Below, piece after piece: positions 268 to 14,413 of a stretch of 14,413 nucleotides of DNA (positions within the stretch are counted from its first letter, which is position 1; every line of letters begins with the position of its first letter). The stretch is from a virus. Lineage: Duplodnaviria; Heunggongvirae; Uroviricota; Caudoviricetes. Location of the stretch: the IMG/VR virus record IMGVR_UViG_2654587996_000008; one strand, given 5' to 3'. The notes below the pieces were generated by a model. The model was given only the letters and a program-made list of their open reading frames with translations. It had not been told where the DNA came from and did no database searches. The position numbers and the translations under genes were made by a program.

Positions 268-629
268 GACGGAATGGCCTCTTTGTTTGTTGAAAGAAAG
301 ACCGGATACTTCAGTTTAGACTGGTACTGTTTTCAGGGAAGAGATCATTTTGCGATTACACGTTTACTAGTATTAATGGATCCCCCCACTTAGCTCTTTT
401 TCTTACACCAAGTAAAAAGAAAAATCTAAGATGATCTTTTGCAGCCAAGCATCCCCACATACATACTTTACTCTCTAATTAAATGATAATTAGTCGTATT
501 CTTTTCATCACAAAAACGCTTTTTGATACGGCTAATCATATGACTTATCAAAGACATAACTAGAGTCGTTATCTTTTCAATAAGTAGAGCAGTTGGGTAG
601 CACTAGATGTGTTTGAGAATGAGGTTTTA

Positions 630-656
630 ATGAAAATGGCCCGTGTGAGGGGCCAT
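630..656 (-). terminator. Putative intrinsic terminator of the three-gene operon
   Basis: 7-bp GC-rich stem (636-642 'ATGGCCC' pairing 650-656 'GGGCCAT') with a 7-nt loop, followed on the minus strand by 'TTTCATT', directly after the stop at 659-661. Confidence 0.4.
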
Positions 657-658
657 AA

Positions 659-1126
659 TTATTTTACGATTCTGAAAGAAGGAATCTCAAGAAGAGGCAG
701 AAGCAGTGGTTTAATGCCCACGCGAGTAGATAACCCATAAACCTGCTCACGAACATATGGGTATATAATCAATGGAGCGTTAAAATCAGCCCAATGAGGG
801 ATATGCTTAACAGAGAATTCTTCAGTATCTACTGTAAAAACTCCTCCGACTTCAACCCATATAGAGACAGGTTGGTTCTCATACTCTTGGTTGTCAGCTT
901 CAGAATTATCCTCATCTACAGCAAATCTGCCAGCACGAACCCTCATACTTACATGTATAGTAGATGTTGCTTCATCAAAATCTGAATGGCCTGCTTCCAT
1001 AGCGTAGCTACCAGCTTGGTAGTCAGCCGAATGTGCAGTCTTAACGTCATGCACTTCAATACTCAGCTTCAAAACTTGCAACGAACGGAGTTGCACAGCA
1101 TGTGCTCGAAATGACTTATTTGACAT
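659..1126 (-). CDS. SecB-like chaperone
   Basis: 155 aa. C-terminal 'NAPLIIYPYVREQVYGLSTRVGIKPLLLPLL' matches the SecB signature segment (E. coli SecB '...[30 protein letters not shown]...'). Start overlaps the upstream stop as TAATG (translational coupling). Confidence 0.6.
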   Translation of the reverse strand: MSNKSFRAHAVQLRSLQVLKLSIEVHDVKTAHSADYQAGSYAMEAGHSDFDEATSTIHVSMRVRAGRFAVDEDNSEADNQEYENQPVSIWVEVGGVFTVDTEEFSVKHIPHWADFNAPLIIYPYVREQVYGLSTRVGIKPLLLPLLEIPSFRIVK

Positions 1127-1434
1127 TAGGCCGCCAGTGCAAATTCAGGTTCTGCTTCAACAGCTAAGACCGTGTCAGCGTTCAAGGATTTAGCAGCATT
1201 TAGCTTCACAGTAGCAAACAAAGTTACCAGTTCCTCTGTCATGACTTCTGAAAAGTGCAAAGACAAAGACTCCAGAGTATTTACATCAAAATCTTTGAAT
1301 TTTTCGCTTTTTTTCAGAAAAGAGGAAACATCCCCTTCTCTACATTCCCTGGCTTCTTTAAGGAACTCTTCAGGTGTTAAAGACAAGATGTCTTGTAACG
1401 CCGCGTCCAATGCAGCCTTCATTCTACGGTTCAT
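1126..1434 (-). CDS. Small acidic helical protein; putative antitoxin/adaptor of the operon
   Basis: 102 aa with SD 'GAGGGG' 8 nt upstream of the ATG. Starts 12 nt after the upstream gene and overlaps the downstream start. No recognisable DNA-binding motif; the C-terminal tail '...TVLAVEAEPEFALAA' is acidic/hydrophobic. Confidence 0.5.
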   Translation of the reverse strand: MNRRMKAALDAALQDILSLTPEEFLKEARECREGDVSSFLKKSEKFKDFDVNTLESLSLHFSEVMTEELVTLFATVKLNAAKSLNADTVLAVEAEPEFALAA

Positions 1435-1446
1435 AGTGGAACCCCT

Positions 1447-2052
1447 CTAATTTTTAGTTATAGCAAGATAATCCAGATTTCTAACTATCACAGCAAACGG
1501 CGCTCCAACATACCCAGCCAGTTGGTCTGGCATTTTATGTGGTTGCTGGACGGTGGCTAACACTACGCCAACTGATATGCATTTGGATTCTTCAGTTCGA
1601 TTGATGAGCATTTGATGCACTGCACAGATAAGGTCTTCTCTCTCATCAACATTCTGGGCATTTATAGTTGGCCAAAGACCATCAAGCGCTTTTCTTAAAG
1701 TTACTCTAAACTCGGGACTCTCAAGGTTTAAAACCTCTTCACCAGGTGCCTTGACGTACCCCCAAATTACAGCGCAACCTTTGTCAGCTTCGTCTGAATA
1801 TTCACCTCTTTTTTCAGCAGCAACAAACCAACTTTCTGCAAGTTGAGTTGCATATTGGCATCCTTTTTCAGCAGCATGCCAAAGATAAGCTCCCACACCA
1901 CGCCTACCACCGTCTCCAACTCTGAAACCATTCTCCAGAATTGATGCAGCCCTTGAGCAGCAAGTTCCATGGGAGCCATGTGCTTCGAAGAAGGTAGCTT
2001 CAACTGATTCATCATTAGCGGCTTGATCGGAAACTAAACTTAACATATTCAT
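1447..2052 (-). CDS. Putative ADP-ribosyltransferase-fold protein (PARP/diphtheria-toxin-like H-G-S/T motif)
   Basis: 201 aa. 'FFEAHGSHGTCCSRAASILENGFRVGDGGRRGVGAYLWHAAEKGCQYA' resembles the NAD-binding core of H-Y-E clade ARTs (PARP1 '[37 protein letters not shown]', diphtheria toxin 'YHGT'). Candidate catalytic acidic residues lie further downstream. The functional call is inference. Confidence 0.45.
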   Translation of the reverse strand: MNMLSLVSDQAANDESVEATFFEAHGSHGTCCSRAASILENGFRVGDGGRRGVGAYLWHAAEKGCQYATQLAESWFVAAEKRGEYSDEADKGCAVIWGYVKAPGEEVLNLESPEFRVTLRKALDGLWPTINAQNVDEREDLICAVHQMLINRTEESKCISVGVVLATVQQPHKMPDQLAGYVGAPFAVIVRNLDYLAITKN

Positions 2053-2148
2053 TTAGTTACCATTTATCCGTTTCTTAGTGTTCTTAGCCAACTAACTGAA
2101 CCTTCTTCAGTGGACGTTAGTAGACAAACTATAGGACAAGTTTATCCG

Positions 2149-2154
2149 ATTATA
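2149..2154 (-). promoter_or_regulatory. Candidate -10 box (TATAAT on minus strand) for the three-gene operon
   Basis: Plus-strand 'ATTATA' at 2149-2154 gives a perfect minus-strand TATAAT about 95 bp upstream of the start at 2052. No convincing -35 was found. Confidence 0.2.
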
Positions 2155-2348
2155 AAAACAACACAAGCTATCTGATGAATAGGTTGATCCCGTTTTTAAG
2201 TAATCACCTCAGCAAACAACAATTACTTACTGAAGCAACTGTAACTTAGAGCGCGTACGACCAAAAACCCCGCTAGCGGTGCCGATGAGTGACAAGTTTT
2301 GACAGGTGCATCAAACGATCTGCACATGAAATTTTCTAAAGCGGCGCG

Positions 2349-2606
2349 GTTGACACTTTCCGGCTTAAGACCTTAATAAATCTTAATATCGCAGGTTGAC
2401 ACACTTGACACTTTTTCGCGAAAAACCTTAGCATTTCTAAGCATGGCAACTTGACATTTTTCGCGGTTTTTTCGGCTTTTTGACGTGGTAAATCTGGCAC
2501 AAACCCAGTAATTGCGGGGCTTACAGCGAGGTTGACACTTTTTCGCGTTCAGAGTGTAAAGTGTCAACCTGGCAAGCTTGCCAGCTGCTCAACTTGACAC
2601 TTTTTG
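2349..2606 (+). repeat. Array of direct repeats, consensus about TTGACACTTTTTCGCG, plus one inverted copy and a 16-bp palindrome
   Basis: Copies at 2349-2360, 2395-2402, 2405-2420, 2451-2466, 2480-2485 (degenerate), 2531-2547 and 2594-2606; inverted 'GTGTCAAC' at 2561-2568; perfect palindrome 'CTGGCAAGCTTGCCAG' at 2569-2584. Spacing is irregular. Confidence 0.7.
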
Positions 2607-2609
2607 ATG

Positions 2610-3137
2610 TCATTGATGGTCTGATTTTTCCCACTCAGCCAGGGCGTTTAACCCGGCTTCACTCCATGATTCCGGTTCATCGGGATAATCACCTGCAACA
2701 TAGCAGAGTTCGCAACGCAGCATACGAATTGCCAGCCTGGCATTACCTCGCAAATTGTATTTTTCAAAGTAATGCTGCCCTTCATCATCCTCAAGGCAGA
2801 TAGCACCATCATCAAGAAAGTGCACTTCCCAGCCTAATTCCCCGGCTGCATACAGCACACGCTGCTGTATGCCCTCGTCCGTTACTGGCGCAGGAATTTT
2901 ACCGTCTCTGGCCTTAACTGCTTTCCAGAACTCGCCCCATGTCATTTCCAGCGTTCTTTCTGGCCACATTTCAGAAATGGTGTCTTTCCCCTGTGCTGGT
3001 GGGCTGTTCCGCTGCTCTGTCGCTTCCACATCAATTTTTTTACCGGACATGACCACTTCGCCTTTCTCGAGCCAGTCGTAAACTGTCTGGCGGCTTACGC
3101 CTTTGTATTTGGCGTATTCGGCTTTACTCATCAACAT
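2610..3137 (-). CDS. Nu1-like winged-HTH DNA-binding protein (possible terminase-small-subunit-like / packaging-redirection protein)
   Basis: About 175 aa from the ATG at 3137 (SD 'GAGGTG' 7 nt upstream; the ORF track's earlier ATG at 3155 lacks an SD). N-terminus 'MSKAEYAKYKGVSRQTVYDWLEKGEVV' resembles lambda Nu1 'KKQLADIFGASIRTIQNWQEQGMPV'. The repeat array lies immediately 3'. Confidence 0.5.
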   Translation of the reverse strand: MLMSKAEYAKYKGVSRQTVYDWLEKGEVVMSGKKIDVEATEQRNSPPAQGKDTISEMWPERTLEMTWGEFWKAVKARDGKIPAPVTDEGIQQRVLYAAGELGWEVHFLDDGAICLEDDEGQHYFEKYNLRGNARLAIRMLRCELCYVAGDYPDEPESWSEAGLNALAEWEKSDHQ

Positions 3138-3236
3138 GTAGCTCACCTCATGCATATACGATAAAAAATAATTTCATGCGGAAAGGGAATGCGTTGTGGG
3201 TATGGAGGAAAGGGGCAATAACCGCCCCTTACTGAT

Positions 3237-3509
3237 TCAGTTGCGCCAGGATGGCTGGCTAAGCGTGGTTTTCATTACATCATTGACGACCTGTTTTACG
3301 ATTTCTGTGTTGGCAGTCGTGCTTTCAACATCAACAAAGCCATAATCGCCAATTTCCACCGTCAGGGATTCCAGTTTCTTCCCTAGAGCATCAGGCAACT
3401 CTCCACTGAACCGGTGCTGAAGATTTTCCACCAGCAACGCCCTGAATGCCTCGCTGTTCTCTTTTTTCTGCCATAGCTGGCGTTTATCCACTCTGATATT
3501 TAATTTCAC
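3237..3509 (-). CDS. Hypothetical protein (90 aa), coupled to the upstream RHH gene
   Basis: ATGA start/stop overlap with the upstream gene at 3506-3509. No recognised motif. Confidence 0.45.
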   Translation of the reverse strand: MKLNIRVDKRQLWQKKENSEAFRALLVENLQHRFSGELPDALGKKLESLTVEIGDYGFVDVESTTANTEIVKQVVNDVMKTTLSQPSWRN

Positions 3510-3673
3510 AGTCTCACCTCTTTAAGTGCCTTATCCATCAGTTGCCGAGCGATAACATGAATCGACGGTGCCACACCAAGCACAGATTTCTGACGCTCTT
3601 CGTCCTGGATGCGTTGCAGGGCTTCGATCTGCCTCCGGGAAAGTAAAACTGGCTTTACTCCGTGATTTTTCAT
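3506..3673 (-). CDS. Small ribbon-helix-helix-like DNA-binding protein (55 aa)
   Basis: ATG at 3673 with SD 'AAGGGA' 6 nt upstream. 'KPVLLSRRQIEALQRIQDEE...VLGVAPSIHVIARQLMDKAL' fits a beta-strand plus two helices. The longer 107-aa ORF-track form adds a Cys-rich N-terminus translated from AT-rich intergenic DNA and is rejected. Confidence 0.5.
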   Translation of the reverse strand: MKNHGVKPVLLSRRQIEALQRIQDEERQKSVLGVAPSIHVIARQLMDKALKEVRL

Positions 3674-3692
3674 GATGATCCCTTCTGAATGA

Positions 3693-3710
3693 CAATAATT
3701 GCAATTATTG
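3693..3710. promoter_or_regulatory. 18-bp perfect palindrome CAATAATTGCAATTATTG (putative operator)
   Basis: Lies 20-37 bp upstream of the RHH gene start. A related partial copy 'ACAATTGCAATAA' sits at 3734-3746. Confidence 0.45.
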
Positions 3711-3951
3711 CACAAATTGAAATGATACCAGAGACAATTGCAATAAATGAAACGAAAAGCATCAATAAACCAACCTTCGGCACTGAATGCTCTGATTTTT
3801 CTGCAAAGGTATGGCAGATGTTGGTGCATGCAAACATAAAGGCAATAGCAGAAGAAACAGCGGGGAGTGAAAAGGGGAAGTTTTTATAAATACACGATTG
3901 TCGCCTCACTGCAGGTTAACAGCCACAAGCTCCATGATAATAACTTGTTAA

Positions 3952-4275
3952 TTATTTCATCAGATTTTTCATTATTTGCGCGATTGAATACACAAGCAAA
4001 AACTCGGCAGCCGCAAGAGTATAAAAAACATAAATTCGCTTAGCCCACCGACGATGAAAGAACTCCTCAGCATGGCCGGATGTTCGAGATACAAGCCATG
4101 CACCTACTGCACACAGAGCAGGTGCAATGAGCACAGTTATAAACCAGATTGTGATGCCCATCCCATGCCTACTGATAATAGCCATTGGTATTGCAAAAAT
4201 GAATGTTAGAGCAGCATTAGCTAATAGAATATCTTTTAAAGTATTTTCAATTAGTTTTTCTAGATTATCTTTCAT
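3952..4275 (-). CDS. Small integral membrane protein (107 aa, 2-3 predicted TM helices)
   Basis: Hydrophobic stretches 'LLANAALTFIFAIPMAIISRHGMGITIWFITVLIAPALCAVGAWLV' and 'IYVFYTLAAAEFLLVYSIAQIM'. ATG at 4275 is preceded by a G-rich SD. Confidence 0.55.
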   Translation of the reverse strand: MKDNLEKLIENTLKDILLANAALTFIFAIPMAIISRHGMGITIWFITVLIAPALCAVGAWLVSRTSGHAEEFFHRRWAKRIYVFYTLAAAEFLLVYSIAQIMKNLMK

Positions 4276-4298
4276 CTAATCCCCCCCGTTGAACATTA

Positions 4299-4326
4299 AT
4301 ATATAAAAGCCCCTTACTAAGGGGCT
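4299..4326 (-). terminator. Intrinsic terminator after the lipoprotein gene
   Basis: 8-bp stem (4308-4315 'AGCCCCTT' pairing 4319-4326 'AAGGGGCT') with a 3-nt loop, followed on the minus strand by 'TTTATATATT'. It sits between the lipoprotein stop (4340) and the membrane-protein start (4275). Confidence 0.5.
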
Positions 4327-4339
4327 TTGCACGGATTGT

Positions 4340-5482
4340 TTAAAGGGAACTTTTTTTCGCCCCTTCAATTTCTGCCTGACAAATTTCGTCATTTGTAAAT
4401 GAGTACTGCAGATAGACATATCCCTGAGTGGAATTGTTCGCTCTGGCCTCAATAGATATAGTATCAATATTGTTTTTTAATGGTATTTCTTTTGTTCCCT
4501 TCCATGTGGCAGATAAGAAGCGTTCTTTTTTGTTTAGCCCCCTCATCCAGTCCTGAGGATCTTTCCAAATTGAACCAGCCAGCAAAAAGTCTGTAGTATC
4601 AGCCTTTCCATACAGAGAACTTAAAGAATTACTCAATTCTTCAAACTTGGATTTAAGAGCCAATCCATAGCTATCAGTATCAATATTTTTTCCTAAAGCC
4701 CGTATTTGACATAAACCAGCTTTCGGGGAGATCAACAAACCATACATTTCAAAATCTGCGTTTTGCTTCGGTAATTTATCAGAAGTATACAGATTCACAC
4801 TGTCTGGTAGTGGCTTGAGCTTAGCACCGATCATATCTTCGATGTTTTTCTGTGTAAGACCGGCTTCTAAGCCAAACGGACCATCCGCTGGCGGGAGTAA
4901 AGGAAGTTGCTCTTGGGAATTTTTGGCTGTTACTTCCGTTTCAGTACTGTTTTTTGCGTCATTATCTTGTACTGATGCCAGCTTAACTTCAGCGAGGCCA
5001 TACTTGGCTGTGAGGTACTTTTGCTGCAACATTGCCATGGTCTGCTCTTCAGTGGCAACAGTAGATAATTTTAGTACCTTTATCAGACCACCACTATACT
5101 GACGAGCATCAGCTTTGGCTTCGTTGATTTTTGCATCTAAGCTGTCAATTTCAGTTTTAATTGAAGCCGCAAGCTCAGGATCAGGTTTTACTCCAGATAC
5201 AACAACATCAATTTTGGCGCCTGATTCAATAGCATTAATACGCTGTTCCAAAAGCGCTTTATTAGTTCCTAATATTTCCAGTCTTGCTGTTGTCAGATTT
5301 TTTATCAACCCACCAGAAAACTGCTGGTCAACTTCCTTAGCTGCTGATATTTCACCTTCCGTTTGCGATAGTTCAGCTTTAAGAGCCGCTACTTCCTGTT
5401 TCTGTTCTGGAGTTAACTCTTCTGGCCCACATCCGGTTAACATTACTATACCGACTAATGTTGCAATTAAAGTTTTATTCAT
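4340..5482 (-). CDS. Lipoprotein (380 aa) with internal repeats
   Basis: Signal peptide and lipobox 'MNKTLIATLVGIVMLTGC'. Repeated 'Q[FY]SGGLIK' motif and coiled-coil-like central region. Function unknown. Confidence 0.65.
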   Translation of the reverse strand: MNKTLIATLVGIVMLTGCGPEELTPEQKQEVAALKAELSQTEGEISAAKEVDQQFSGGLIKNLTTARLEILGTNKALLEQRINAIESGAKIDVVVSGVKPDPELAASIKTEIDSLDAKINEAKADARQYSGGLIKVLKLSTVATEEQTMAMLQQKYLTAKYGLAEVKLASVQDNDAKNSTETEVTAKNSQEQLPLLPPADGPFGLEAGLTQKNIEDMIGAKLKPLPDSVNLYTSDKLPKQNADFEMYGLLISPKAGLCQIRALGKNIDTDSYGLALKSKFEELSNSLSSLYGKADTTDFLLAGSIWKDPQDWMRGLNKKERFLSATWKGTKEIPLKNNIDTISIEARANNSTQGYVYLQYSFTNDEICQAEIEGAKKSSL

Positions 5483-5616
5483 ATCCCTATTCCAAATGAA
5501 AATATTCAGATTAATCTTATCAGGAACCCAGATGCAATTGAATATTCATCTGCTCAGCAACGTAGTAGCTTTCCTCAGAAAGCATCAACAAAAAACCAAG
5601 AGAATCCCATCCTCTG

Positions 5617-5904
5617 TTACTGACTACAATTGTTCTTTTTTTGGTATTTCCTGAATGCCTCACCATTGGGCTGATGTAATCCCATCCCGACATGTGCCCG
5701 GCAGATGGTTTTGCGCATCTCCCCGAAATTATCCTGCCTTGCTGGTGGGCGTGCTGCCTTGTGGATACATTCCGCGCGACGTTTTGCCGCCTGTTCCCGT
5801 GCCTTGTCATCATTCGCCAGCATGATGACCTCAGCCCACCGCGCCGCCGCTCTGCGGTACAGGCCACGCGCTTCCAGTGCTTCCGCTTTACTGTCCTGAA
5901 TCAT
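5617..5904 (-). CDS. PerC-family transcriptional regulator (Pch-like)
   Basis: 95 aa. 'KAEALEARGLYRRAAARWAEV' matches the conserved PerC/Pch N-terminal motif as I recall it. SD 'AGGAGG' upstream; ATGA overlap with the upstream stop. Confidence 0.65.
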   Translation of the reverse strand: MIQDSKAEALEARGLYRRAAARWAEVIMLANDDKAREQAAKRRAECIHKAARPPARQDNFGEMRKTICRAHVGMGLHQPNGEAFRKYQKKNNCSQ

Positions 5905-6479
5905 GCACCTGTTACCTCCTTTGCTGCCCGGCGCTGACGTTTGCGCTTCTCATTCAGCGCCACCAGCCGCGTTTCTGCCTCCTGCTGTTCCTGTGGTGTC
6001 ACTTCCCCACATGGCTGGCCTTTCAGGTCGTAGCGTACCCCACCAGCCATTAAGGCGCGGTAATAGCGCGGACACTGCGCATAAGATGCCAGCGTCGCAC
6101 GTAATGCCCCTGGCCCGAATGCCAGCCCCCTGACGGCGAGGTTCTGCATCAGGTCGTCGAATATCCCCACCTTAAGCGGCTTCGGTGCTTCCCGGCTGAA
6201 TAAGTCAGGCCACAACTCAGTAAGGCGGTTAACGCGCCTGCGGTTTTTTCGCTGCCGTTTGGTCATATGCCGCCACGGTGTCGCCCCTGTGGGCTTTTGC
6301 TGCGCTTTCTGGTTACCGGGCATCACTTTATGTGCCGATGTGGTTTTATCCTGCTCCTGCGTCGCCTGCGTCGTTTTCTGCGGCGTGCCGTAAATGCCTT
6401 TCGGTTTTCTGTTAATGGTCAGCTTAGTCATGCTTTGCCCCATCGTTTTTACTGGTTGTTTCATATCCGGTACTTTCAT
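5901..6479 (-). CDS. ProQ/FinO-domain RNA-binding protein
   Basis: 192 aa. 'KPLKVGIFDDL...LRATLASYAQCPRYYRALMAGGVRYDLKGQPCGEVT' parallels E. coli ProQ 'RPLKIGIFQDL...[36 protein letters not shown]', preceded by a basic Lys/Arg/Gln-rich N-terminus. The exact start is uncertain among several in-frame ATGs. Confidence 0.65.
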   Translation of the reverse strand: MKVPDMKQPVKTMGQSMTKLTINRKPKGIYGTPQKTTQATQEQDKTTSAHKVMPGNQKAQQKPTGATPWRHMTKRQRKNRRRVNRLTELWPDLFSREAPKPLKVGIFDDLMQNLAVRGLAFGPGALRATLASYAQCPRYYRALMAGGVRYDLKGQPCGEVTPQEQQEAETRLVALNEKRKRQRRAAKEVTGA

Positions 6480-6484
6480 CTTCT

Positions 6485-6770
6485 GGGTAGAGGGGTAGAC
6501 GGCGGGTAGATAACAAAAAATAGTCCTCTACCCACTTAACATAATGAAAAAAAACAACTTTCACACATTAGGTAGAGGGGTAGACCGTAAAATAGAAAAG
6601 TTTGAAACTTACTTTCTTACAATCTGTGTTTTCCTCTCGCTGTGTAAAAAGTTTTTTGAGCGGGGATGTTGTCTACCCCTCTACCCATTTCTCTGAAAGC
6701 CTTGTGCCACAAGAGATTCAGCGGGTAGACAATAAAAAATCACCATCTACCCTGTGTCTACCCATCTACC
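6485..6770. repeat. Iteron-type replication origin (multiple GGGTAGA / TCTACCC heptamers flanking AT-rich spacers)
   Basis: Direct copies at 6485-6500 ('GGGTAGAGGGGTAGAC'), 6504-6510, 6571-6586 and 6723-6730; inverted copies at 6527-6533, 6671-6687, 6746-6752, 6756-6763 and 6765-6770. AT-rich stretches at about 6535-6570 and 6587-6660. Immediately 3' of the primase gene. Confidence 0.65.
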
Positions 6771-6787
6771 TGTTACGGGTATTACTC

Positions 6788-8536: not shown

Positions 8537-8823
8537 TTCTTACCTCCCGCAACCAACATTGCCCGGATTTTTTTAATATTCTTGGCTGCACGTCTCGCCA
8601 CCGCCTGTTGTTTGTTTTCAACCAGAATAAAATCACGCTCAAACTGACGACGCGGCATTACGCAGTCATATTCGTAAGCCTCACGGCGGTAGGTGATATT
8701 GCCTGGCGTAACGTGACGAATAACCACTCGTCCCCCACGTCTGGTGTCGCGGTAAATATCTCCGTGTCTGATTTCAGGCCGAGAGAGACCGCTGGCAGTA
8801 AAGCCAGAATTTTTCTTTTTCAT
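8533..8823 (-). CDS. Hypothetical small basic protein (96 aa)
   Basis: SD 'AGGAAA' upstream of the ATG at 8823; coupled to the primase start. Confidence 0.5.
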   Translation of the reverse strand: MKKKNSGFTASGLSRPEIRHGDIYRDTRRGGRVVIRHVTPGNITYRREAYEYDCVMPRRQFERDFILVENKQQAVARRAAKNIKKIRAMLVAGGKK

Positions 8824-8827
8824 GGTT

Positions 8828-9612: not shown

Positions 9613-9829
9613 GGTGCACCTCCTGCACATCAGCCATGATAATTTTTCCGGCCTTATCCAGTGCCTGATCGGCTTTTAGCTGCACAAATGCTAAATAATG
9701 GGAGATGCATTCTGATTCTCTGACTGCGTGTTTATGCGCCACACCAGCGATAGCTGAAATCTCAATAAGTGAATCCATCAGCGTTTTGATAGCGTCTACC
9801 GCTGCATCAGGCCATGTTGCATTACACAT
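9605..9829 (-). CDS. Hypothetical protein (74 aa)
   Basis: SD 'AGGAGG' upstream of the ATG at 9829; ATGTGTAA overlap with the upstream ORF. Confidence 0.45.
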   Translation of the reverse strand: MCNATWPDAAVDAIKTLMDSLIEISAIAGVAHKHAVRESECISHYLAFVQLKADQALDKAGKIIMADVQEVHHA

Positions 9830-10025
9830 GCTCCACCTCCTGGCGAATACGGGCAGCGAATACCATCACGCAGCCATCAGGGGATTGCTGGCGTGCTTCC
9901 TGTTCGCTGGTGGCCTCGATGTGAATTACGCGCGGTTGTGCTGTGCTCAGGGCGATAAAACGCCAGATGTATTTATTCAGGTTGTGCGAGTCCCGCCCTT
10001 GCGGGTGTGTGGTATGATTTCTCAT
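9822..10025 (-). CDS. Hypothetical protein (67 aa), first gene of the replication operon
   Basis: Internal ATG of the long stop-free frame, at 10025, with SD 'GAGGT' 5 nt upstream. Translation 'MRNHTTHPQGRDSHNLNKYIWRF...'. Confidence 0.45.
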   Translation of the reverse strand: MRNHTTHPQGRDSHNLNKYIWRFIALSTAQPRVIHIEATSEQEARQQSPDGCVMVFAARIRQEVEHV

Positions 10026-10122
10026 AGCTACCTCGATACTGTTGCTATCGTTGGTGGTTAGAAGCCCGGTTAGTGTTAGCGCACTGCCGGGTTTCGTCGT
10101 TTCTGCACCTTGCATCAACAAG

Positions 10123-10174
10123 GTGTTGAACACCAATTTAAACCTAGGTGTTAAACACGTCAAGTGTTGAACAC
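10123..10174. promoter_or_regulatory. Three 11-bp palindromic operator-like sites GTGTT(G/A)AACAC in a divergent control region
   Basis: Sites at 10123-10133, 10148-10158 and 10164-10174. The third overlaps a plus-strand -35-like 'TTGAAC' (10167-10172), with -10-like 'CATACT' (10190-10195) upstream of the RHH gene. Confidence 0.55.
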
Positions 10175-10224
10175 TTGTTTTTTTTCCTGCATACTGCATT
10201 TGTTTTTTGTGAGGGGGACACAAC

Positions 10225-10404
10225 ATGGCGACAAAAGCAGTAAACGCAAAATCACAAACAGTTGCGGCAAGGGTTCCGCATGAAGTTATGAACAATGTTG
10301 AGGCGGTAAAAATGCCTGGTGAAAGTACAGGGCAGTTTGTAACAGCAGCATTAAAGCGAGAAGTTGAGTACCGCCAGCGGCGCAAGGCCAAAGAACAGGA
10401 GTAA
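10225..10404 (+). CDS. Small ribbon-helix-helix-like regulator (59 aa), not in the ORF track
   Basis: ATG at 10225 with strong SD 'GAGGGGG'. Translation 'MATKAVNAKSQTVAARVPHEVMNNVEAVKMPGESTGQFVTAALKREVEYRQRRKAKEQE' fits a beta-strand plus two helices. The only clearly plus-strand gene, divergent from the replication operon. Confidence 0.5.
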   Translation: MATKAVNAKSQTVAARVPHEVMNNVEAVKMPGESTGQFVTAALKREVEYRQRRKAKEQE

Positions 10405-10661
10405 CCATCACCAGCGCCGTGGTGTGAGGAACGACGGTGCATCGTTTTACAGGGCAGCGCCATGACCAACAAAGAATCAACCAATACACCATCACCGGCC
10501 CGGAAAAGACAGCGCAGAAAGATAGCGTACGAGTATGAGTCAGACAGATTCGCGCCCTGTGCGTTTATCCTTGAGAATTTCCTTAAAGAGTACAGGCGCA
10601 CAAAAATGGGGTCGCATACCTGGAAAACATCGCGACATGGCAATGTTAAAGAGCCGGAATA

Positions 10662-11084
10662 GCCCACCAGCAAGCCAGCACACTGATCACATTGCCCACC
10701 AGCCGCAAATCTGGCATTGTTGGCGATGTGTTCAAGTGTGTAGCTTTCCCACTGGTGGCCCTCTGCGGTCGCCTTTGTTTTATCCAGAACGAAATCAGAC
10801 ATCAGATTAATCAGCACCTGGCGACCTGACAAAAACGCATCAGTCGCGCCACCAGCAAAATTTTTTGCTTTCCGGACAGCGTGACCAACGACATTTTGCA
10901 GCAAAATATTCTGCATTTCTGGCGTGCTGTAGTAACGGTGATCAGCGCCTTCACTCTGTGCGACCACAACGCTATAATCTGCCTCGTAGACAGTAAGCAA
11001 TATGGCGCAGTAGGCTATTCGTTCACAAAGGCGCTCCGGCAACGGGGCGCTTTCTCTTTTTGTAACGGTCAGAGCGTTACACAT
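10662..11084 (-). CDS. Hypothetical protein, 5' portion only; 3' end undefined (possible disrupted gene)
   Basis: ATG at 11084 overlaps the antirepressor stop (ATGTGTAA). The first ~140 residues look protein-like, but the frame then runs stop-free through regulatory DNA to 9822, so the true end cannot be set. The end coordinate is arbitrary. Confidence 0.25.
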
Positions 11085-11925
11085 GGCTGTTTTCCTCCAT
11101 GCGACGGGCTAACCAACGCTGCGAAAGACGAATTAATTCAGCTTTCCGCTGGTGGTAGCCCTGGCCTAACTCAATCAGCGTGATATTGCTCTGCTCAAGG
11201 TAAGAAAGGTGCTCAAGCTGCAACGTGCTCATGTGGTCGCGTGGTTCGCCTGTGATGCCGTTCGCCTGCGCCCACTGTTTTGCAGTCATGCCACCCAGCA
11301 CGATACGCGCCAGCATATTGGCTTCCGTGGTGTAGTGGTGCTGGAACGTGTTTTTATCCAGTTCAGCCCGGTACGCCTCCAGCGCGGCACACATTGGCTT
11401 AAAGTAGCTGGCAACTGTGATACGGGCTTTCATTTCCCGGCGTAACGCTGCGGAACGCACTGGCGCTACCTTGTGTAGCTCCTCCTCGCATTTGATGAAG
11501 TACTGACGAACGGCGCGGCCCTGTTCGGTGCGTTCGACCATCGCCAGTTCTTTCGCCATGTTCGTGGAGATCAAATAGTCTTCACTGCGACGATCACCGC
11601 CGCGCTTTGTTGTCCAATCAGAATCAAACTGTTCAATATTTACACTTTGGTTCCCCCATTTCGGGGAATCAAAGTACAAATTTTCTACAACTTCAAAATC
11701 CACACCCTTTTTAAATCCGTACTCATCAATGCGTCCTTTAATCCAGGTTGTGAAATCACGACCTACCCCGAGCGCCTTATGCGACGCTCTGGCGCTAACA
11801 ATATTGGTTTCACGCCCGCCAATAACGCCGGAAATAACCGGGATAATTTCGCCAAAATTTTGCAGATTCTGGTTTTCAGGCCGAACGAAGCCCTGCCCCT
11901 GTACGGGCGTTTTTCGCAGTTTCAT
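11077..11925 (-). CDS. Phage antirepressor-like protein (AntA-type N-terminal domain plus KilA-C-type C-terminal domain)
   Basis: 282 aa with SD 'AGGAG' upstream. 'SARASHKALGVGRDFTTWIKGRI' and 'MAKELAMVERTEQGRAVRQYFIKCEEEL' match antirepressor domain signatures as I recall them. Confidence 0.6.
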   Translation of the reverse strand: MKLRKTPVQGQGFVRPENQNLQNFGEIIPVISGVIGGRETNIVSARASHKALGVGRDFTTWIKGRIDEYGFKKGVDFEVVENLYFDSPKWGNQSVNIEQFDSDWTTKRGGDRRSEDYLISTNMAKELAMVERTEQGRAVRQYFIKCEEELHKVAPVRSAALRREMKARITVASYFKPMCAALEAYRAELDKNTFQHHYTTEANMLARIVLGGMTAKQWAQANGITGEPRDHMSTLQLEHLSYLEQSNITLIELGQGYHQRKAELIRLSQRWLARRMEENSHV

Positions 11926-12002
11926 AAAAACTCCTGCTATCGAATTAAGTTACTTTTGTTTGCTGGTGGATAGTTGGGGCTTCTGGCCCCGTAGCCATTT
12001 AA

Positions 12003-12200
12003 TCAGGTAGCTGTTCCGCGTGATTCCGCAATACGCTGATTAATCCACTCGTCAATTTCACTCTCAACGAAAGCAATCGCTCGCGAGCCAATTTTTACAG
12101 GTTTAGGAAAACGCCCTTGGGCAATGAGTTTATAGATCCATGCCCTTCCATACCCTGTACGGCGCATGGTTTCTGGCATACGAATTAAAGATTGTGACAT
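12003..12200 (-). CDS. alpA: AlpA-family transcriptional regulator / excisionase-like protein
   Basis: About 65 aa from the ATG at 12200 (SD 'GGGAGA' upstream). 'IRMPETMRRTGYGRAWIYKLIAQGRFPKPVKIGSRAIAFVESEIDEWINQR' is the AlpA-type HTH signature. The ORF-track N-terminal extension is rejected. Confidence 0.75.
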   Translation of the reverse strand: MSQSLIRMPETMRRTGYGRAWIYKLIAQGRFPKPVKIGSRAIAFVESEIDEWINQRIAESRGTAT

Positions 12201-12266
12201 GATAATCGTCTCCCGTTGTTTATTGATGCCTACGGGAGACATTGAAGCAGGTAAGACATTGGATAT

Positions 12267-12303
12267 CACCGCAATTGCGGTGAATGATACCGCAATTGCG
12301 GTA
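12267..12303. promoter_or_regulatory. Tandem 16-bp perfect palindromes CACCGCAATTGCGGTG and TACCGCAATTGCGGTA (operator-like)
   Basis: At 12267-12282 and 12288-12303, centres 21 bp apart, between the 251-aa gene stop (12315) and the alpA start (12200). Confidence 0.55.
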
Positions 12304-12314
12304 TAGGACTACAA

Positions 12315-13070
12315 CTACGATTTAATTGATTTATTGGCTTCAGCAAACTTTGCTTCCAGCGTTCTTGAACTCATCCCCGGCTTACCTTCAAAATGCCCCA
12401 ATAAATTACTAATAATAGAGCTTTGATTTTCGAATACAGATTGCTTAATACCAGCAGGTGAACGCCCTAACATTAGAAAAAGCAACCCTCCAATAATGTT
12501 TAAATATGTTGTTTCAGAACGTTGGTCAATGTTTTGCACGGAGTTATCAACCATTCGTCGTAGTGAATCACGTTCCCCTTGTAATTCGGAAATTTCATTT
12601 TTCTGCTGTTGAAAAGTCTTCATAGCATTATCTAAGCGAATATTAAGACGTTTGTTTTCAGCCTGAAGAGTTTGATATGCCTCGACTGTAATTCCAGCAT
12701 GTAACTGCTGCTCAACAGCATCAAAAAGGAAAGCTGGTTTTTGGTTGGGATAGTTTTTTGACATCCATGATTTCAGATCGGAATGACGGACGGTTAAACG
12801 GTGCTTAGCAACCTGTTCTCCAGGTTGAACAGTTTTACCATCACGACCATAAGGAATTTCACAATTATTGATTGCATCTAAAATTTTCTCAGCATTAACA
12901 CGCAAGCAAGGCCATTGAGGGAACATTCCAACGCTAGGTAAAACTCCATCTCCCACTCGCTCCAATATTAAAACTTCATGAGCAATTAAATTACACCAAC
13001 GTAGCGCCGCTTCAATTGGAGTGTAATATGCCTTTTCAAGAGAACTACAGCTTTTTGAATTGTAAGTCAC
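12315..13070 (-). CDS. Uncharacterised protein (251 aa) with central coiled-coil-like segment
   Basis: Apparent GTG start at 13070 with SD 'GAGGT' upstream. Heptad-like region 'QTLQAENKRLNIRLDNAMKTFQQQKNEISELQGERDSLRRM'. No family recognised. Confidence 0.5.
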   Translation of the reverse strand: MTYNSKSCSSLEKAYYTPIEAALRWCNLIAHEVLILERVGDGVLPSVGMFPQWPCLRVNAEKILDAINNCEIPYGRDGKTVQPGEQVAKHRLTVRHSDLKSWMSKNYPNQKPAFLFDAVEQQLHAGITVEAYQTLQAENKRLNIRLDNAMKTFQQQKNEISELQGERDSLRRMVDNSVQNIDQRSETTYLNIIGGLLFLMLGRSPAGIKQSVFENQSSIISNLLGHFEGKPGMSSRTLEAKFAEANKSIKS

Positions 13071-13198
13071 TCTGTGCTACCTCGCACCCTCTGTAAAAGT
13101 GGCTGTGCCAGCCCGCAGAGGTGTACGGGTTTTCAGGAGCGACCCTAGACACAGCCTTTTCTTAATCGCTCAAAGTCTACTACTGTATACTCAACCAG

Positions 13199-14413
13199 TC
13201 ACCCGCATTTTCCGAACTCACCATGCACCACATTTCCGCCATGCTCGAGCGAATCCATATAGTCGGCATACCACTGGAGCATCTCCCGGCGACCATCCAG
13301 ATATTGCGCATGGTTGTATGTGCCACGAATTGAGTTTTTATCGACGTGTGCAAGCTGTGTCTCTATCCACGCGGTGTTATAGCCCTGCTCATGCAAAATG
13401 GTGCTCATGGTGTGCCGGAATCCATGACCAGTAACCTTTCCGTTATAGCCGATGCGTTTAAATACTTGGTTTATGCTAGCCTCGCTCATTGTTTTCCTTG
13501 GATCATTACGGCCGGGAAACATAAGCGGATAATTGCCAGTTAATTCTTTAATCTGCCCAATAAGCGAAAGAGCCTGCTCAGACAAAGGCACCACATGAGG
13601 GCGACGCATTTTCATCCGTGAAGCAGGTATCTCCCAGATAGCCTTGTTGAGATCGATTTCATCCCATAATGCACCGCGCAGTTCGCCAGTCCGCAAACCG
13701 GTGATAATCAGTAGACGAGCCGCCATAACAACCAATGCACTTCCTGAGTAACTGGACAATGCCTTGAAAAAATCAGGTAATTCTTTGGCTGTGAGGAAAG
13801 GATAATGACTAGATTCATGACCTTGCATCGCGCTGGTGAGATCCGGTGCAGGGTTATACTCAGCACGTCCAGTGACAATTGCATAGCGGAAAACTTCCCC
13901 GCATCGCTGCCTCACTTTTTTGGCTTTTTCGGTAGCACCGCGCCCCTCGATGCGCCGCAGCACATTCAGCAGTTCAAGTGGTTTGATTTCGGCGATTGGT
14001 TTTTTGCCAATGTAAGGGAACACATCTTTGTTGAAGGCTTCGAGGATGTCTGAAGCATAACCAGCAGACCATTTTTTTAATTTGCTGCTGTGCCACTCAA
14101 TGGCAATATCTTTGAAGGTGTTGTTTAACTGCGTTTCCCGGGCAATCTTTTCCTCTCGTTTCGCTTCCATCGGATCGATACCCCCAGCGATACTCCTTTT
14201 AGCTTCTTCACGTTTTGCACGAGCATCAGCCAAGGTAACTTCAGGATACACACCTAGTGCTAACAGCTTCTCTTTACCAGCTACACGATACTTGAAGCGC
14301 CAATATTTTCCTCCACTAGGTTTTACCAAGAGATACAGACCACCACCATCAGCCAGCTTGTAAGCCTTCTCTTTTGGCTTGGCAGTGTCTATTTGACGGG
14401 CATTGAGTTTCAC
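13199..14413 (-). CDS. int: P4-type tyrosine integrase (site-specific recombinase)
   Basis: 404 aa. N-terminus 'KLNARQIDTAKPKEKAYKLADGGGLYLLVKPSGGKYWRFKYR' is typical of P4/CP4-57-type integrases; C-terminus has 'HGFRHT' and 'RGTYNHA' (catalytic Tyr region). Apparent GTG start sits exactly at the window edge, so the N-terminus may be slightly truncated. Confidence 0.9.
   Translation of the reverse strand: MKLNARQIDTAKPKEKAYKLADGGGLYLLVKPSGGKYWRFKYRVAGKEKLLALGVYPEVTLADARAKREEAKRSIAGGIDPMEAKREEKIARETQLNNTFKDIAIEWHSSKLKKWSAGYASDILEAFNKDVFPYIGKKPIAEIKPLELLNVLRRIEGRGATEKAKKVRQRCGEVFRYAIVTGRAEYNPAPDLTSAMQGHESSHYPFLTAKELPDFFKALSSYSGSALVVMAARLLIITGLRTGELRGALWDEIDLNKAIWEIPASRMKMRRPHVVPLSEQALSLIGQIKELTGNYPLMFPGRNDPRKTMSEASINQVFKRIGYNGKVTGHGFRHTMSTILHEQGYNTAWIETQLAHVDKNSIRGTYNHAQYLDGRREMLQWYADYMDSLEHGGNVVHGEFGKCG

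What the first reader, a model, noticed from the sequence alone, without database searches (positions are those of the whole stretch)
400..14413. Satellite-type island without structural genes but with several regulatory cargo layers
The window shows integrase, alpA, antirepressor, primase and origin with no capsid, tail or lysis genes, the signature of a helper-dependent element. Its cargo stacks a PerC-like regulator, a FinO-domain protein, envelope proteins and a putative toxin/chaperone module, giving several independent routes by which the island could alter host or helper-phage biology.
Basis: partly seen in the sequence, partly recalled or inferred. Interest (0 to 1): 0.35.

Follow-up and report, generated by a model that had tools for sequence, protein, structure and literature searches.

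The report
E. coli thrW phage satellite (PICI)
This is an ordinary but intact-looking member of a known class of E. coli phage satellites (PICIs), sitting at the thrW tRNA gene, and one of its cargo modules is a three-gene toxin-antitoxin-chaperone system of the kind known to defend against phages.

Summary

- **Boundaries.** The window is about 14.4 kb of a 15,565-bp E. coli island. It is bounded by direct repeats of the att core TCCTATTATC at tRNA-Thr (thrW). Chromosomal genes (proBA, pao) or another island lie outside.
- **Class.** It is a mosaic Gram-negative PICI.
  - Integrase, AlpA and AntA resemble EcCIMP1 (95.8%, 76% and 58.5% identity).
  - YlcI, Icd, the DUF4222 (RgdR-like) protein and Pri-Rep resemble EcCICFT073 (61%, 94%, 52% and 70%).
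  - An iteron origin lies directly 3' of the replicase gene.
- **Toxin/chaperone module.** It is a CmdTAC-like system: an ADP-ribosyltransferase-fold toxin from a rare family, an antitoxin ending in ALAA, and a SecB-like chaperone.
- **Packaging.** The island lacks EcCICFT073's Rpp, capsid-like genes and lambda-type cosN. Instead it has a 175-aa protein with a TerS/Rpp-like DNA-binding domain next to a conserved AAAGTGTCAA repeat array. This is a candidate packaging module, not a proven one.

Helper dependence is inferred, not shown. Verdict: new member of a known kind, modest interest.

The parts
1..347 (-). End of an IS3-family insertion sequence (orfA at 1-267), inserted inside the island between the TAC module and attR
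   Evidence: HTH_Tnp_1 6.1e-25 and NF033516 transpos_IS3. Window 1-347 is about 96% identical to IS3-family copies on E. coli plasmids. In L004 the IS spans about 11706-12938 and is followed by 83 bp of conserved island end plus attR.
659..1126 (-). SecB-like chaperone of the TAC module (CmdC-like), followed by a terminator-like hairpin at 636-656
   Evidence: PADLOC PD-T4-9_C 2e-9; Pfam SecB 2.5e-5; NCBIfam SecB 2.6e-4; terminator-like hairpin.
1126..1434 (-). Antitoxin candidate, 102 aa, helical N-terminus and a C-terminus ending in EFALAA
   Evidence: The C-terminal (F/Y)ALAA is invariant in homologues only 44% identical. LAA is the ClpXP recognition sequence of CmdA (PMC11618068). No PADLOC or Pfam family was hit.
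1447..2052 (-). ADP-ribosyltransferase-fold toxin candidate, 201 aa, with a promoter-like site at 2128-2156
2350..2609 (-). Array of six AAAGTGTCAA-type repeats (five direct, one inverted) immediately 3' of the HTH175 gene, at the edge of the conserved core
   Evidence: The same arrangement occurs after homologous genes in other Enterobacterales: 48 of 73 motif copies lie in 5.2% of the sequence, binomial 1e-43.
2610..3137 (-). HTH175: a winged-helix DNA-binding domain of the Xis / TerS(Nu1) / Rpp type, plus a C-terminal dsRBD-like domain; candidate packaging-specificity or regulatory protein
3237..3673 (-). Two small ORFs (90 aa at 3237-3509, 55 aa at 3506-3673) of unknown function
   Evidence: Both are annotated in relatives. 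The 55-aa ORF is 62% identical to an EcCIMP1 ORF.
3952..5482 (-). Envelope pair: a 380-aa lipoprotein (4340-5482) and a 107-aa membrane protein (3952-4275)
   Evidence: Lipobox and hydrophobic segments. The pair is conserved at 88% and 68% identity in an Enterobacter island. No family hits.
5617..5904 (-). PerC-family regulator
   Evidence: PF06069 1.3e-30; 49% identical to the PerC-like proteins of EcCICFT073 and EcCIMP1.
5901..6479 (-). ProQ/FinO-domain RNA-binding protein
   Evidence: PF04352 9.8e-24; NCBIfam FinO 6.5e-17 and ProQ 3.3e-15.
6485..6763 (.). Replication origin candidate: ten GGGTAGAN iterons in two sets around an 85-bp spacer that is 66% A+T
   Evidence: The layout matches the ori organisation described for Gram-negative PICIs (PMC6092414).
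6788..8536 (-). Pri-Rep replicase: SF3 helicase core plus a C-terminal domain matching that of the P4 alpha protein; no Toprim or Zn-ribbon primase domain
   Evidence: PDB 7ola 1.8e-13 for residues 224-440 and 1ka8 7.9e-9 for residues 486-576. 70% identical to EcCICFT073 Pri-Rep.
8533..8823 (-). DUF4222 protein, a homologue of RgdR (c1493/ECs1581)
   Evidence: PF13973 1.4e-19; 52% identical to the 99-aa DUF4222 protein of EcCICFT073 at L009 11946-12245, which I infer to be c1493/RgdR from its length and RGD motif (PMC3378721).
8828..9829 (-). Four small conserved ORFs between icd and DUF4222
   Evidence: phrog_340, phrog_2512, phrog_24341 and phrog_5146. The arrangement is the same in EcCICFT073.
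9822..10025 (-). Icd-like protein, 67 aa
   Evidence: NF033153 3.8e-20; 94% identical to the EcCICFT073 protein.
10122..10177 (-). Promoter-like site for the icd-to-pri operon, embedded in three GTGTT-N-AACAC palindromes
10225..10662 (+). Divergent plus-strand genes: YlcI/YnfO family (10225-10404) and a 66-aa ORF (10462-10662)
   Evidence: NF041551 2.1e-16; 61% and 65% identical to the EcCICFT073 counterparts.
11077..11925 (-). AntA/AntB-family antirepressor
   Evidence: PF08346 1.9e-21; phrog_5817 1.2e-35; 58.5% identical to EcCIMP1 AntA.
12003..12200 (-). AlpA regulator, 65 aa
   Evidence: PF05930 2.5e-19; 76% identical to the canonical AlpA of EcCIMP1.
12315..13070 (-). 251-aa ORF of unknown function between int and alpA
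   Evidence: It is conserved in N921.
13087..13155 (-). int-alpA RNA motif (RF02996)
   Evidence: 49.8 bits against a gathering score of 35.8, E 5.8e-8.
13199..14413 (-). P4-type tyrosine integrase; the att core inside thrW lies 174 bp beyond the window end
   Evidence: 95.8% identical to the EcCIMP1 integrase. tRNA-Thr and the att core were located in L041 and L043.

Best explanation
The window is most of a 15.6-kb phage-inducible chromosomal island (PICI-type phage satellite) of E. coli. It is integrated in the 3' end of tRNA-Thr (thrW).

**Likely life cycle**
1. A P4-type integrase recombines the TCCTATTATC att core.
2. A helper phage switches on alpA, and AlpA drives excision and expression of the rightward operon.
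3. The Pri-Rep helicase/initiator binds the GGGTAGA iterons directly downstream of its own gene and replicates the excised circle.
4. The DNA is packaged into helper-made particles, because the island encodes no capsid, tail or lysis genes.

**Packaging.** The determinant is not the Rpp/lambda-cos system of EcCICFT073. The best candidate is a 175-aa protein with a TerS/Rpp-like winged-helix domain, together with the AAAGTGTCAA repeat array directly after its gene.

**Other gene content.** The island encodes a PerC-family regulator, an RgdR-like DUF4222 protein, a ProQ/FinO RNA-binding protein and a lipoprotein/membrane-protein pair. In the variable segment next to attR it carries a CmdTAC-like toxin-antitoxin-chaperone module. 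By analogy with CmdTAC, that module would release an ADP-ribosyltransferase toxin when a phage protein titrates the SecB-like chaperone and ClpXP degrades the antitoxin.

**Shown here:** gene content, boundaries, homologies, the ori layout and the toxin fold.
**Inferred:** helper induction, packaging route, defence activity and the regulatory effects of the cargo.
For: **Boundaries**
- The att core is repeated 15,565 bp apart on one contig (L042 position 2818 and L004 position 13022).
- tRNA-Thr(CGT) and proBA lie on the integrase side in L041 and L043.
- pao genes lie on the other side.
- A 96.8%-identical relative in strain N921 measures 15.75 kb between the same repeats.

**Core homology**
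- To EcCIMP1 (helper-dependent excision and transfer demonstrated): integrase 95.8%, AlpA 76%, AntA 58.5% (PMC11773190).
- To EcCICFT073 (pri/ori replication demonstrated): Pri-Rep 70%, Icd 94%, YlcI 61%, DUF4222 52%, PerC 49% (PMC6092414).

**Other support**
- The ori has iterons in two sets around an AT-rich spacer directly 3' of pri.
- The replicase C-terminus matches the C-terminal domain of the P4 alpha protein, PDB 1ka8.
- No structural or lysis families were found.
- All genes are unidirectional and intact.
- The Rfam int-alpA RNA motif is present.
- TAC module; the three-gene architecture is conserved in Klebsiella and Citrobacter prophages and in Pseudomonas phage Turba.
- HTH175 and its repeat array.
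Against: - No experiment on this element exists. Induction, replication and transfer are extrapolated from relatives.
- Only three of the five PICI core components listed in the SatelliteFinder paper (integrase, AlpA, primase-replicase) are recognisable. That paper treats such 'Type C' elements as ambiguous.
- There is no Rpp homologue (BLASTP E 0.06, N-terminal HTH only).
- There is no lambda-type cosN and no P2-type cos.
- No helper phage has been identified.
- An IS3-family element has been inserted near attR.
- The toxin and antitoxin do not hit the PADLOC PD-T4-9 A or B models even at E up to 10. Calling the module 'CmdTAC-like' rests on the chaperone hit, the toxin fold, the catalytic motif, the LAA tail and the gene order.
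Confidence: 0.8

Rival explanations
1. It is a fixed, no longer mobile remnant: a cryptic island that keeps PICI-like genes but has lost the means to be packaged, and now persists only by vertical inheritance.
For: - No recognisable packaging or interference module: no Rpp, no capsid-morphogenesis genes, no lambda cosN.
- An IS3-family element is inserted near attR.
- The copies found are nearly identical (99.5-99.98%) at the same chromosomal site, which fits clonal inheritance.
- Only three of the five PICI core components in the SatelliteFinder paper are present.
Against: - Every core ORF is intact and both att cores are present.
- The IS interrupts no gene and leaves the terminal 83 bp intact.
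- The cargo next to attR differs between otherwise 97%-identical copies, N921 versus the window. The modules are mosaic with other islands. Both point to ongoing exchange.
- HTH175 and its repeat array are conserved across genera.
Confidence: 0.15
2. It is a P4-like satellite that depends on a P2-like helper.
For: - P4-type integrase, AlpA and an Icd-like protein.
- The replicase belongs to the P4 primase family by its C-terminal part (TIGR01613 6.7e-30) and matches the P4 alpha C-terminal domain, PDB 1ka8.
Against: - No psu, delta, sid or epsilon families were found in any protein.
- No P2/P4 cos sequence within three mismatches.
- The replicase lacks the Toprim/Zn-ribbon primase part.
- The gene order is that of EcCICFT073, not of P4.
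Confidence: 0.03
3. It is an integrative mobilisable element moved by conjugation, with the FinO-domain protein acting on plasmid transfer RNAs.
For: - A ProQ/FinO-domain protein is present, and its best NCBIfam hit is FinO.
- Some Enterobacter elements annotated as PICIs carry VirB/VirD4 genes (PMC13612085).
Against: - No relaxase, coupling protein or type IV secretion family was found in any protein.
- The core is homologous to phage-mobilised PICIs.
Confidence: 0.02

Closest known systems
EcCIMP1 (E. coli MP1 PICI; helper phage Kapi1; PMC11773190)
   Same: - Same integration site: thrW between proA and yagU, att core TCCTATTATC.
- Integrase 95.8% identical, canonical AlpA 76%, AntA 58.5%, PerC-family protein 49%.
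- Both have DUF4222 and Icd-like genes and no structural or lysis genes.
- In some strains the same vat/MarR island lies alongside.
   Different: - EcCIMP1 is 19,963 bp.
- It uses a TOPRIM/DUF927 replicase.
- It carries a phage DNA ejection protein and a lytic transglycosylase-domain protein, and a second alpA-like gene.
- It lacks ProQ/FinO, the lipoprotein pair, HTH175 and the TAC module.
EcCICFT073 (prototype Gram-negative cos-type PICI; PMC6092414, PMC6739421)
   Same: - Same order of core genes: int, alpA, divergent ylcI/ynfO, icd-like, small ORFs, DUF4222 (RgdR), pri-rep, ori, PerC.
- Pri-Rep 70% identical, Icd 94%.
- A DNA-binding protein with a TerS-like winged helix sits near the distal end.
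   Different: - Different integrase (25% identity) and different att site.
- EcCICFT073 has capsid-like and head-decoration genes, an SSB and RppA, with exact lambda cosN copies on both sides of rppA.
- The window has none of these. It has AntA, ProQ/FinO, the lipoprotein pair, HTH175 with its repeat array, and the TAC module.
CmdTAC / PD-T4-9 toxin-antitoxin-chaperone defence system (PMC9519451, PMC11618068)
   Same: - Gene order toxin, antitoxin, chaperone.
- The SecB-like chaperone hits PD-T4-9_C.
- The toxin has an ADP-ribosyltransferase fold with a His-Tyr-Glu set of invariant residues.
- The antitoxin ends in LAA.
- It is carried in a variable region of a mobile element.
   Different: - The toxin and antitoxin do not match the PADLOC PD-T4-9 A or B models.
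- The toxin belongs to a rare, unannotated family: 12 clusters, no Pfam domain.
- Its target and trigger are unknown.
Rpp proteins of E. coli PICIs (RppA/RppC) and lambda TerS (gpNu1)
   Same: - That domain is 47% identical over 38 residues to a Nu1-type TerS.
- Its gene sits at the distal end of the island, as rpp does.
   Different: - No significant sequence similarity to RppA.
- The C-terminal domain is dsRBD-like, not the helical coiled coil of Rpp.
- There is no lambda cosN nearby.
- The repeat array lies after the gene, not before it.

Membership tests
Gram-negative PICI (as defined in Fillol-Salom et al. 2018, PMC6092414) | Tyrosine integrase with a specific attachment site | tested here: met
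   The integrase is confirmed. The att core TCCTATTATC lies at thrW and is repeated 15,565 bp away. Both copies lie outside the window.
Gram-negative PICI (as defined in Fillol-Salom et al. 2018, PMC6092414) | alpA after int, with unidirectional transcription of the core genes | tested here: met
   The order is int, orf251, alpA, antA, then icd through pri, all on one strand. Only ylcI and the 66-aa ORF are divergent, exactly as in EcCICFT073.
Gram-negative PICI (as defined in Fillol-Salom et al. 2018, PMC6092414) | pri-rep gene followed directly by an origin with two iteron sets around an AT-rich region | tested here: met
   Ten GGGTAGAN iterons at 6485-6763 around an 85-bp spacer that is 66% A+T. 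Pri-Rep is 70% identical to that of EcCICFT073.
Gram-negative PICI (as defined in Fillol-Salom et al. 2018, PMC6092414) | No phage structural or lysis genes; size about 10-20 kb | tested here: met
   PHROGs and Pfam scans were negative. Size is 15.6 kb including a 1.2-kb IS. The flanks are chromosomal or another island.
Gram-negative PICI (as defined in Fillol-Salom et al. 2018, PMC6092414) | Packaging or interference module (rpp, terS, ppi or capsid morphogenesis) and a cos or pac site | tested here: inconclusive
   No Rpp homologue, no lambda or P2 cos and no capsid-like genes. The candidate analogue is HTH175 with its repeat array.
Gram-negative PICI (as defined in Fillol-Salom et al. 2018, PMC6092414) | Helper-phage-dependent induction and high-frequency transfer | not testable with these tools
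   Shown only for the relatives EcCIMP1 and EcCICFT073.
PICI core components listed in the SatelliteFinder paper (de Sousa et al.) | At least four of five core components: integrase, AlpA-type regulator, primase-replicase, capsid morphogenesis, small terminase | tested here: inconclusive
   Three are clear. A capsid-morphogenesis gene is absent. A terS-like signal exists only as a weak N-terminal hit (phrog_57 2.2e-6). SatelliteFinder's own profiles were not run.
P4-like satellite | psu-delta-sid operon, epsilon, and a P2-type cos site | tested here: not met
   No such families were found in any protein. No P2 cos within three mismatches.
cfPICI (capsid-forming PICI) | Own capsid, portal, protease, head-tail connectors and TerL | tested here: not met
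   None were detected.
CmdTAC (PD-T4-9) toxin-antitoxin-chaperone system | SecB-like chaperone encoded third in a three-gene operon | tested here: met
   PD-T4-9_C 2e-9 and SecB 2.5e-5. The order toxin-antitoxin-chaperone is kept in homologues 56-59% identical.
CmdTAC (PD-T4-9) toxin-antitoxin-chaperone system | ADP-ribosyltransferase toxin with an H-Y-[E/D/Q] triad | tested here: met
   [not shown]
CmdTAC (PD-T4-9) toxin-antitoxin-chaperone system | Sequence homology of toxin and antitoxin to CmdT and CmdA | tested here: not met
   No PADLOC hit for either protein at E up to 10.
CmdTAC (PD-T4-9) toxin-antitoxin-chaperone system | Antitoxin with a C-terminal LAA ClpXP recognition sequence | tested here: met
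   It ends in EFALAA, and (F/Y)ALAA is invariant in homologues. The CmdA feature is described in PMC11618068.
CmdTAC (PD-T4-9) toxin-antitoxin-chaperone system | Protects cells against phage | not testable with these tools

The most novel reading that the evidence does not exclude
HTH175 and the AAAGTGTCAA repeat array that always follows its gene may form an undescribed packaging-redirection module, analogous to Rpp. Its DNA-binding domain is derived from, or mimics, that of TerS, and it is joined to a new dsRBD-like domain. The module would let a subfamily of Enterobacterales satellites (Escherichia, Klebsiella, Enterobacter, Pantoea, Rouxiella, Raoultella) that lack capsid-remodelling genes and lambda cosN be packaged by helpers other than lambda/phi80. 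The hypervariable defence cargo sits directly beside this module.
Probability: 0.3. Interest if true: 0.55.

Novelty: new member of a known kind. Interest (0 to 1): 0.3.

Why it matters
- **Practical use.** The element is a cleanly delimited PICI that combines modules from two experimentally studied islands. It could serve for module-swap experiments on induction (AlpA/AntA from the EcCIMP1 lineage) and on replication (Pri-Rep/ori from the EcCICFT073 lineage).
- **Defence cargo.** It adds a case of a satellite carrying a toxin-antitoxin-chaperone module. The toxin is a rare ADP-ribosyltransferase-fold family that current defence-system profiles do not recognise. Homologous three-gene modules occur in Klebsiella and Citrobacter prophages and in a Pseudomonas phage.
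- **Open question.** How PICIs that lack Rpp, TerS and capsid genes get packaged is not settled. The conserved HTH175-plus-repeat module gives a concrete and cheap hypothesis to test.
- **Limit.** Nothing here overturns current understanding.

Tried and rejected
- **Defective prophage with a nearby structural module.** Rejected from the flanking sequence.
- **P4-like satellite.** Rejected: no psu, delta, sid or P2 cos.
- **Lambda-cos/Rpp type of PICI.** Rejected. The window has no cosN within two mismatches, and its five three-mismatch matches are at chance level. EcCICFT073 has two exact copies flanking rppA. HTH175 against RppA gave only E 0.06.
- **Att core inside the window.** Absent. It lies outside on both sides.
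- **tRNA genes in the window.** None.
- **PDB sequence searches.** Nothing useful for the toxin, HTH175, the lipoprotein or orf251.
- **PADLOC on the N921 cargo** (DUF4747 and neighbours). No hits, so 'defence hotspot' is supported only by the TAC module here and by a PDC-S20 KAP-NTPase gene in the Enterobacter relative.
- **Rfam.** Besides the int-alpA motif, only a SymR-like match below threshold. No C4/CI-type RNA.
- **Antitoxin against the antitoxin-position protein of phage Turba.** Not significant.
- **cosN-like sequence upstream of HTH175.** Nothing convincing by eye.

Full report
**1. What is in the window**

Every convincing gene but two lies on the minus strand. From the right end the order is as follows.
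- A P4-type tyrosine integrase at 13199-14413 (three integrase domains, E 1e-26 to 3e-34).
- An Rfam int-alpA RNA motif at 13087-13155 (49.8 bits against a gathering score of 35.8).
- A 251-aa ORF of unknown function.
- AlpA at 12003-12200 (PF05930 2.5e-19).
- An AntA/AntB antirepressor at 11077-11925 (1.9e-21; phrog_5817 1.2e-35).
- A divergent pair on the plus strand: YlcI/YnfO at 10225-10404 (NF041551 2.1e-16) and a 66-aa ORF.
- An Icd-like gene at 9822-10025 (NF033153 3.8e-20).
- Four small ORFs.
- A DUF4222 protein at 8533-8823.
- A 582-aa D5_N/DUF5906 replicase at 6788-8536.
- An intergenic repeat region.
- ProQ/FinO at 5901-6479 (9.8e-24).
- PerC at 5617-5904 (1.3e-30).
- A 380-aa lipoprotein and a 107-aa membrane protein.
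- Two small ORFs.
- A helix-turn-helix protein at 2610-3137.
- A repeat array at 2350-2609.
- A three-gene module at 659-2052.
- The end of an IS3-family element at 1-347.

The 420-aa ORF at 9822-11084 is an artefact. It spans the Icd-like gene and the antisense of the two plus-strand genes. No tRNA gene lies in the window.

**2. Origin of the window and true boundaries**

The closest complete E. coli genome is strain N921. It matches window 2348-14413 at 96.8% identity, but not 348-2347. In N921 the element lies between tRNA-Thr (thrW, next to proA) and a LysR-gene fragment next to paoD. It is bounded by GATAATAGGA repeats 15.75 kb apart and has no structural genes.

An exact-protein look-up found draft E. 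coli assemblies that are 99.97-99.98% identical to the window over positions 1-12052. In these assemblies:
- the IS3-family element is a roughly 1.23-kb insertion inside the island;
- it is followed by 83 bp of island end that is conserved with N921;
- then come the att core, the LysR fragment, paoDCBA and yagU.

On the integrase side, the att core sits inside tRNA-Thr(CGT), 174 bp from the integrase start, and is preceded by proA and proB.

In one assembly both att cores lie on the same contig, 15,565 bp apart. There a different element lies between thrW and this island, so islands can sit in tandem at this site.

It was tested and not found.

**3. What kind of element it is**

The att core and the site (thrW, between proA and yagU) are those published for the PICI EcCIMP1. 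That island's excision, circularisation and transfer require helper phage Kapi1, its integrase and its canonical alpA (PMC11773190). The window's integrase, AlpA and AntA are 95.8%, 76% and 58.5% identical to those of EcCIMP1. The rest of EcCIMP1 is different: a TOPRIM/DUF927 replicase, a phage DNA ejection protein and a lytic transglycosylase-domain protein.

The replication half matches the prototype EcCICFT073, which I located in the CFT073 genome. The gene order is the same: alpA, divergent ylcI/ynfO, icd-like, small ORFs, DUF4222, pri-rep, PerC. Identities are YlcI 61%, Icd 94%, DUF4222 52%, Pri-Rep 70% and PerC 49%.

The 99-aa DUF4222 protein of CFT073 carries an RGD motif near residue 20. 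I infer that it is c1493, the RgdR orthologue (PMC3378721).

The lipoprotein and membrane-protein pair is 88% and 68% identical to a pair in an Enterobacter island.

The element is thus a mosaic of PICI modules.

**4. Replication**

The replicase has an SF3 helicase core (PDB 7ola, 1.8e-13, residues 224-440). Its C-terminal domain matches the C-terminal domain of the P4 alpha protein (PDB 1ka8, 7.9e-9, residues 486-576). It lacks the Zn-ribbon/Toprim primase part that is present in the 772-781-aa versions of the Klebsiella and Pantoea relatives. 'Primase' is therefore a nominal label.

Directly 3' of the gene, ten of the window's twelve GGGTAGAN matches lie within 279 bp. One set of iterons lies at 6671-6763. 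An 85-bp spacer follows that is 66% A+T, against 54% for the window as a whole. The second set lies at 6485-6585. This is the layout described for Gram-negative PICI origins, where pri plus ori supports replication (PMC6092414).

**5. Packaging is the weak point**

EcCICFT073 carries capsid-like and head-decoration genes and rppA, with exact lambda cosN copies 90 bp upstream and about 200 bp downstream of rppA. The window has no cosN within two mismatches, and its five three-mismatch matches are at chance level. It has no P2 cos, no capsid-like genes and no Rpp homologue.

What it does have, in the position rpp occupies in EcCICFT073, is a protein I call HTH175. Its true start is probably the Met seven codons into the ORF, which gives 175 aa like its homologues.

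Evidence on HTH175:
- Its N-terminal 40 residues are nearly invariant across homologues.
- They hit a terminase-small-subunit PHROG (2.2e-6).
- They are 47% identical over 38 residues, starting at residue 1 of the target, to the Nu1-type TerS of cos phage vB_SspM_BZS1.

Evidence on the repeat array:
- Six AAAGTGTCAA-type sites follow the stop codon within 250 bp.
- Across 18 loci from Escherichia, Klebsiella, Enterobacter, Pantoea, Rouxiella, Raoultella and other genera, 48 of 73 motif copies fall in the 730 bp after the gene.
- That region is 5.2% of the sequence (binomial 1e-43). The sites often follow a plus, minus, plus pattern at about +10, +45 and +70.
- In every context examined, the gene sits at the distal end of an int-alpA-primase island.

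This establishes a conserved pairing of a protein with a DNA site. A packaging role like that of Rpp is one reading. An excision-directionality factor or a transcription factor fits the fold equally well.

**6. The toxin/chaperone module**

The 155-aa protein matches PADLOC PD-T4-9_C (2e-9) and SecB (2.5e-5). PD-T4-9 is CmdTAC, in which a SecB-like chaperone senses a phage protein, ClpXP degrades an antitoxin that ends in LAA, and an ADP-ribosyltransferase toxin with an H-Y-[E/D/Q] triad modifies mRNA (PMC11618068).

The three genes here:
- **Antitoxin candidate, 102 aa.** It ends in EFALAA, and (F/Y)ALAA is invariant at 44% identity.
- **Chaperone.** As above.

The three-gene order is kept in Klebsiella and Citrobacter, where the module sits at lambdoid prophage ends next to umuDC-like genes. 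It is also kept in Pseudomonas phage Turba, whose toxin-position protein aligns at hhalign probability 98.9%.

I therefore call the module CmdTAC-like. The architecture and inferred mechanism are shared, but toxin and antitoxin homology to CmdT and CmdA was tested and not found.

The module has its own promoter-like site and terminator-like hairpin. It lies exactly in the segment that differs from N921, which carries DUF4747 and hypothetical genes instead. An Enterobacter relative has a PDC-S20 KAP-NTPase gene beside HTH175. The attR-proximal end therefore behaves as a variable cargo slot.

**7. Regulation, mostly inferred**

A promoter-like site for the icd-to-pri operon (TTGACG-17-TAAATT at 10163-10135) is embedded in three GTGTT-N-AACAC palindromes. 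It faces the divergently transcribed YlcI/YnfO gene, whose sequence looks to me like a ribbon-helix-helix protein. This looks like an operator and repressor arrangement, and it was not tested.

The icd leader forms a hairpin that gives a SymR-like Rfam match below threshold.

PerC-family proteins from PICIs have been reported to activate, silence or not affect LEE expression. The effect of this one cannot be predicted.

ProQ/FinO genes have been noted in an Enterobacter PICI (PMC13612085). No target is known.

**8. Verdict**

The element is a new, mosaic member of the Gram-negative PICI family, not a new kind of system.

Two things are mildly new:
- a TAC module built on a rare ADP-ribosyltransferase-fold toxin family that current defence-system profiles do not recognise;
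- a conserved module of a TerS-like DNA-binding protein plus a repeat array, which may explain how PICIs without Rpp or capsid genes are packaged.

Helper dependence, the helper's identity, the packaging route and defence activity all remain to be shown.

Noticed in passing
window 13087-13155 (-): Rfam int-alpA RNA motif (RF02996), 49.8 bits against a gathering score of 35.8. It lies between the integrase stop codon and the start of the 251-aa ORF. Its function is unknown, and the island also encodes a ProQ/FinO RNA-binding protein.
   Followed up: no
window 10026-10224: The divergent control region between the YlcI/YnfO gene and the icd-to-pri operon has three GTGTT-N-AACAC palindromes around a promoter-like site. 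The icd leader forms a hairpin that gives a SymR-like Rfam match below threshold (32.9 bits against 61). YlcI/YnfO may be the unidentified repressor of Gram-negative PICIs.
   Followed up: partly
window 10950-11063 (+): A plus-strand promoter-like site (TTCACT-17-TATAAT) is followed by a strong terminator-like hairpin (11-bp stem plus a T run) that abuts the 3' end of antA. It could produce an RNA of about 80 nt.
   Followed up: no
window 9822-11084 (-): The 420-aa ORF, which some automated gene calls also list, is an artefact. It overlaps the real 67-aa Icd-like gene and runs antisense through ylcI/ynfO and the 66-aa ORF.
   Followed up: yes
window 1-347; L004 about 11706-12938: An IS3-family element is inserted inside the island, between the TAC module and the last 83 bp before attR. 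It interrupts no gene.
   Followed up: yes
L005 14417-19970; L007 13189-18742; L042 1-2800: Islands sit in tandem at thrW. In some strains a truncated-integrase/MarR/Vat autotransporter island follows this one, the same neighbour as beside EcCIMP1. In one assembly a different element, with GmrSD and other genes, lies between thrW and this island.
   Followed up: partly
L010 and L011 (Klebsiella); L014 and L015 (Pantoea): Satellites that share HTH175 and a full-length Toprim primase carry Dit-like and baseplate-like genes. In Klebsiella they lie directly beside E217-like tail genes, so they may be helper-embedded or tail-modifying satellites.
   Followed up: no
L016-L019 8001-9378; L040 1310-2690: Homologous toxin-antitoxin-chaperone modules occur at lambdoid prophage ends next to umuDC-like genes in Klebsiella and Citrobacter, and in Pseudomonas phage Turba. 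In none of them does PADLOC recognise the toxin or the antitoxin.
   Followed up: partly
L001 24115-24200; L004 12940-13020: GGGGTAC repeats occur near both att cores. They are probably arm-type binding sites for the integrase.
   Followed up: no
L009 9767-9907: EcCICFT073 keeps a 47-codon remnant that is 72% identical to the C-terminus of AntA, directly after alpA. Its lineage seems to have lost an antirepressor that this island retains.
   Followed up: no
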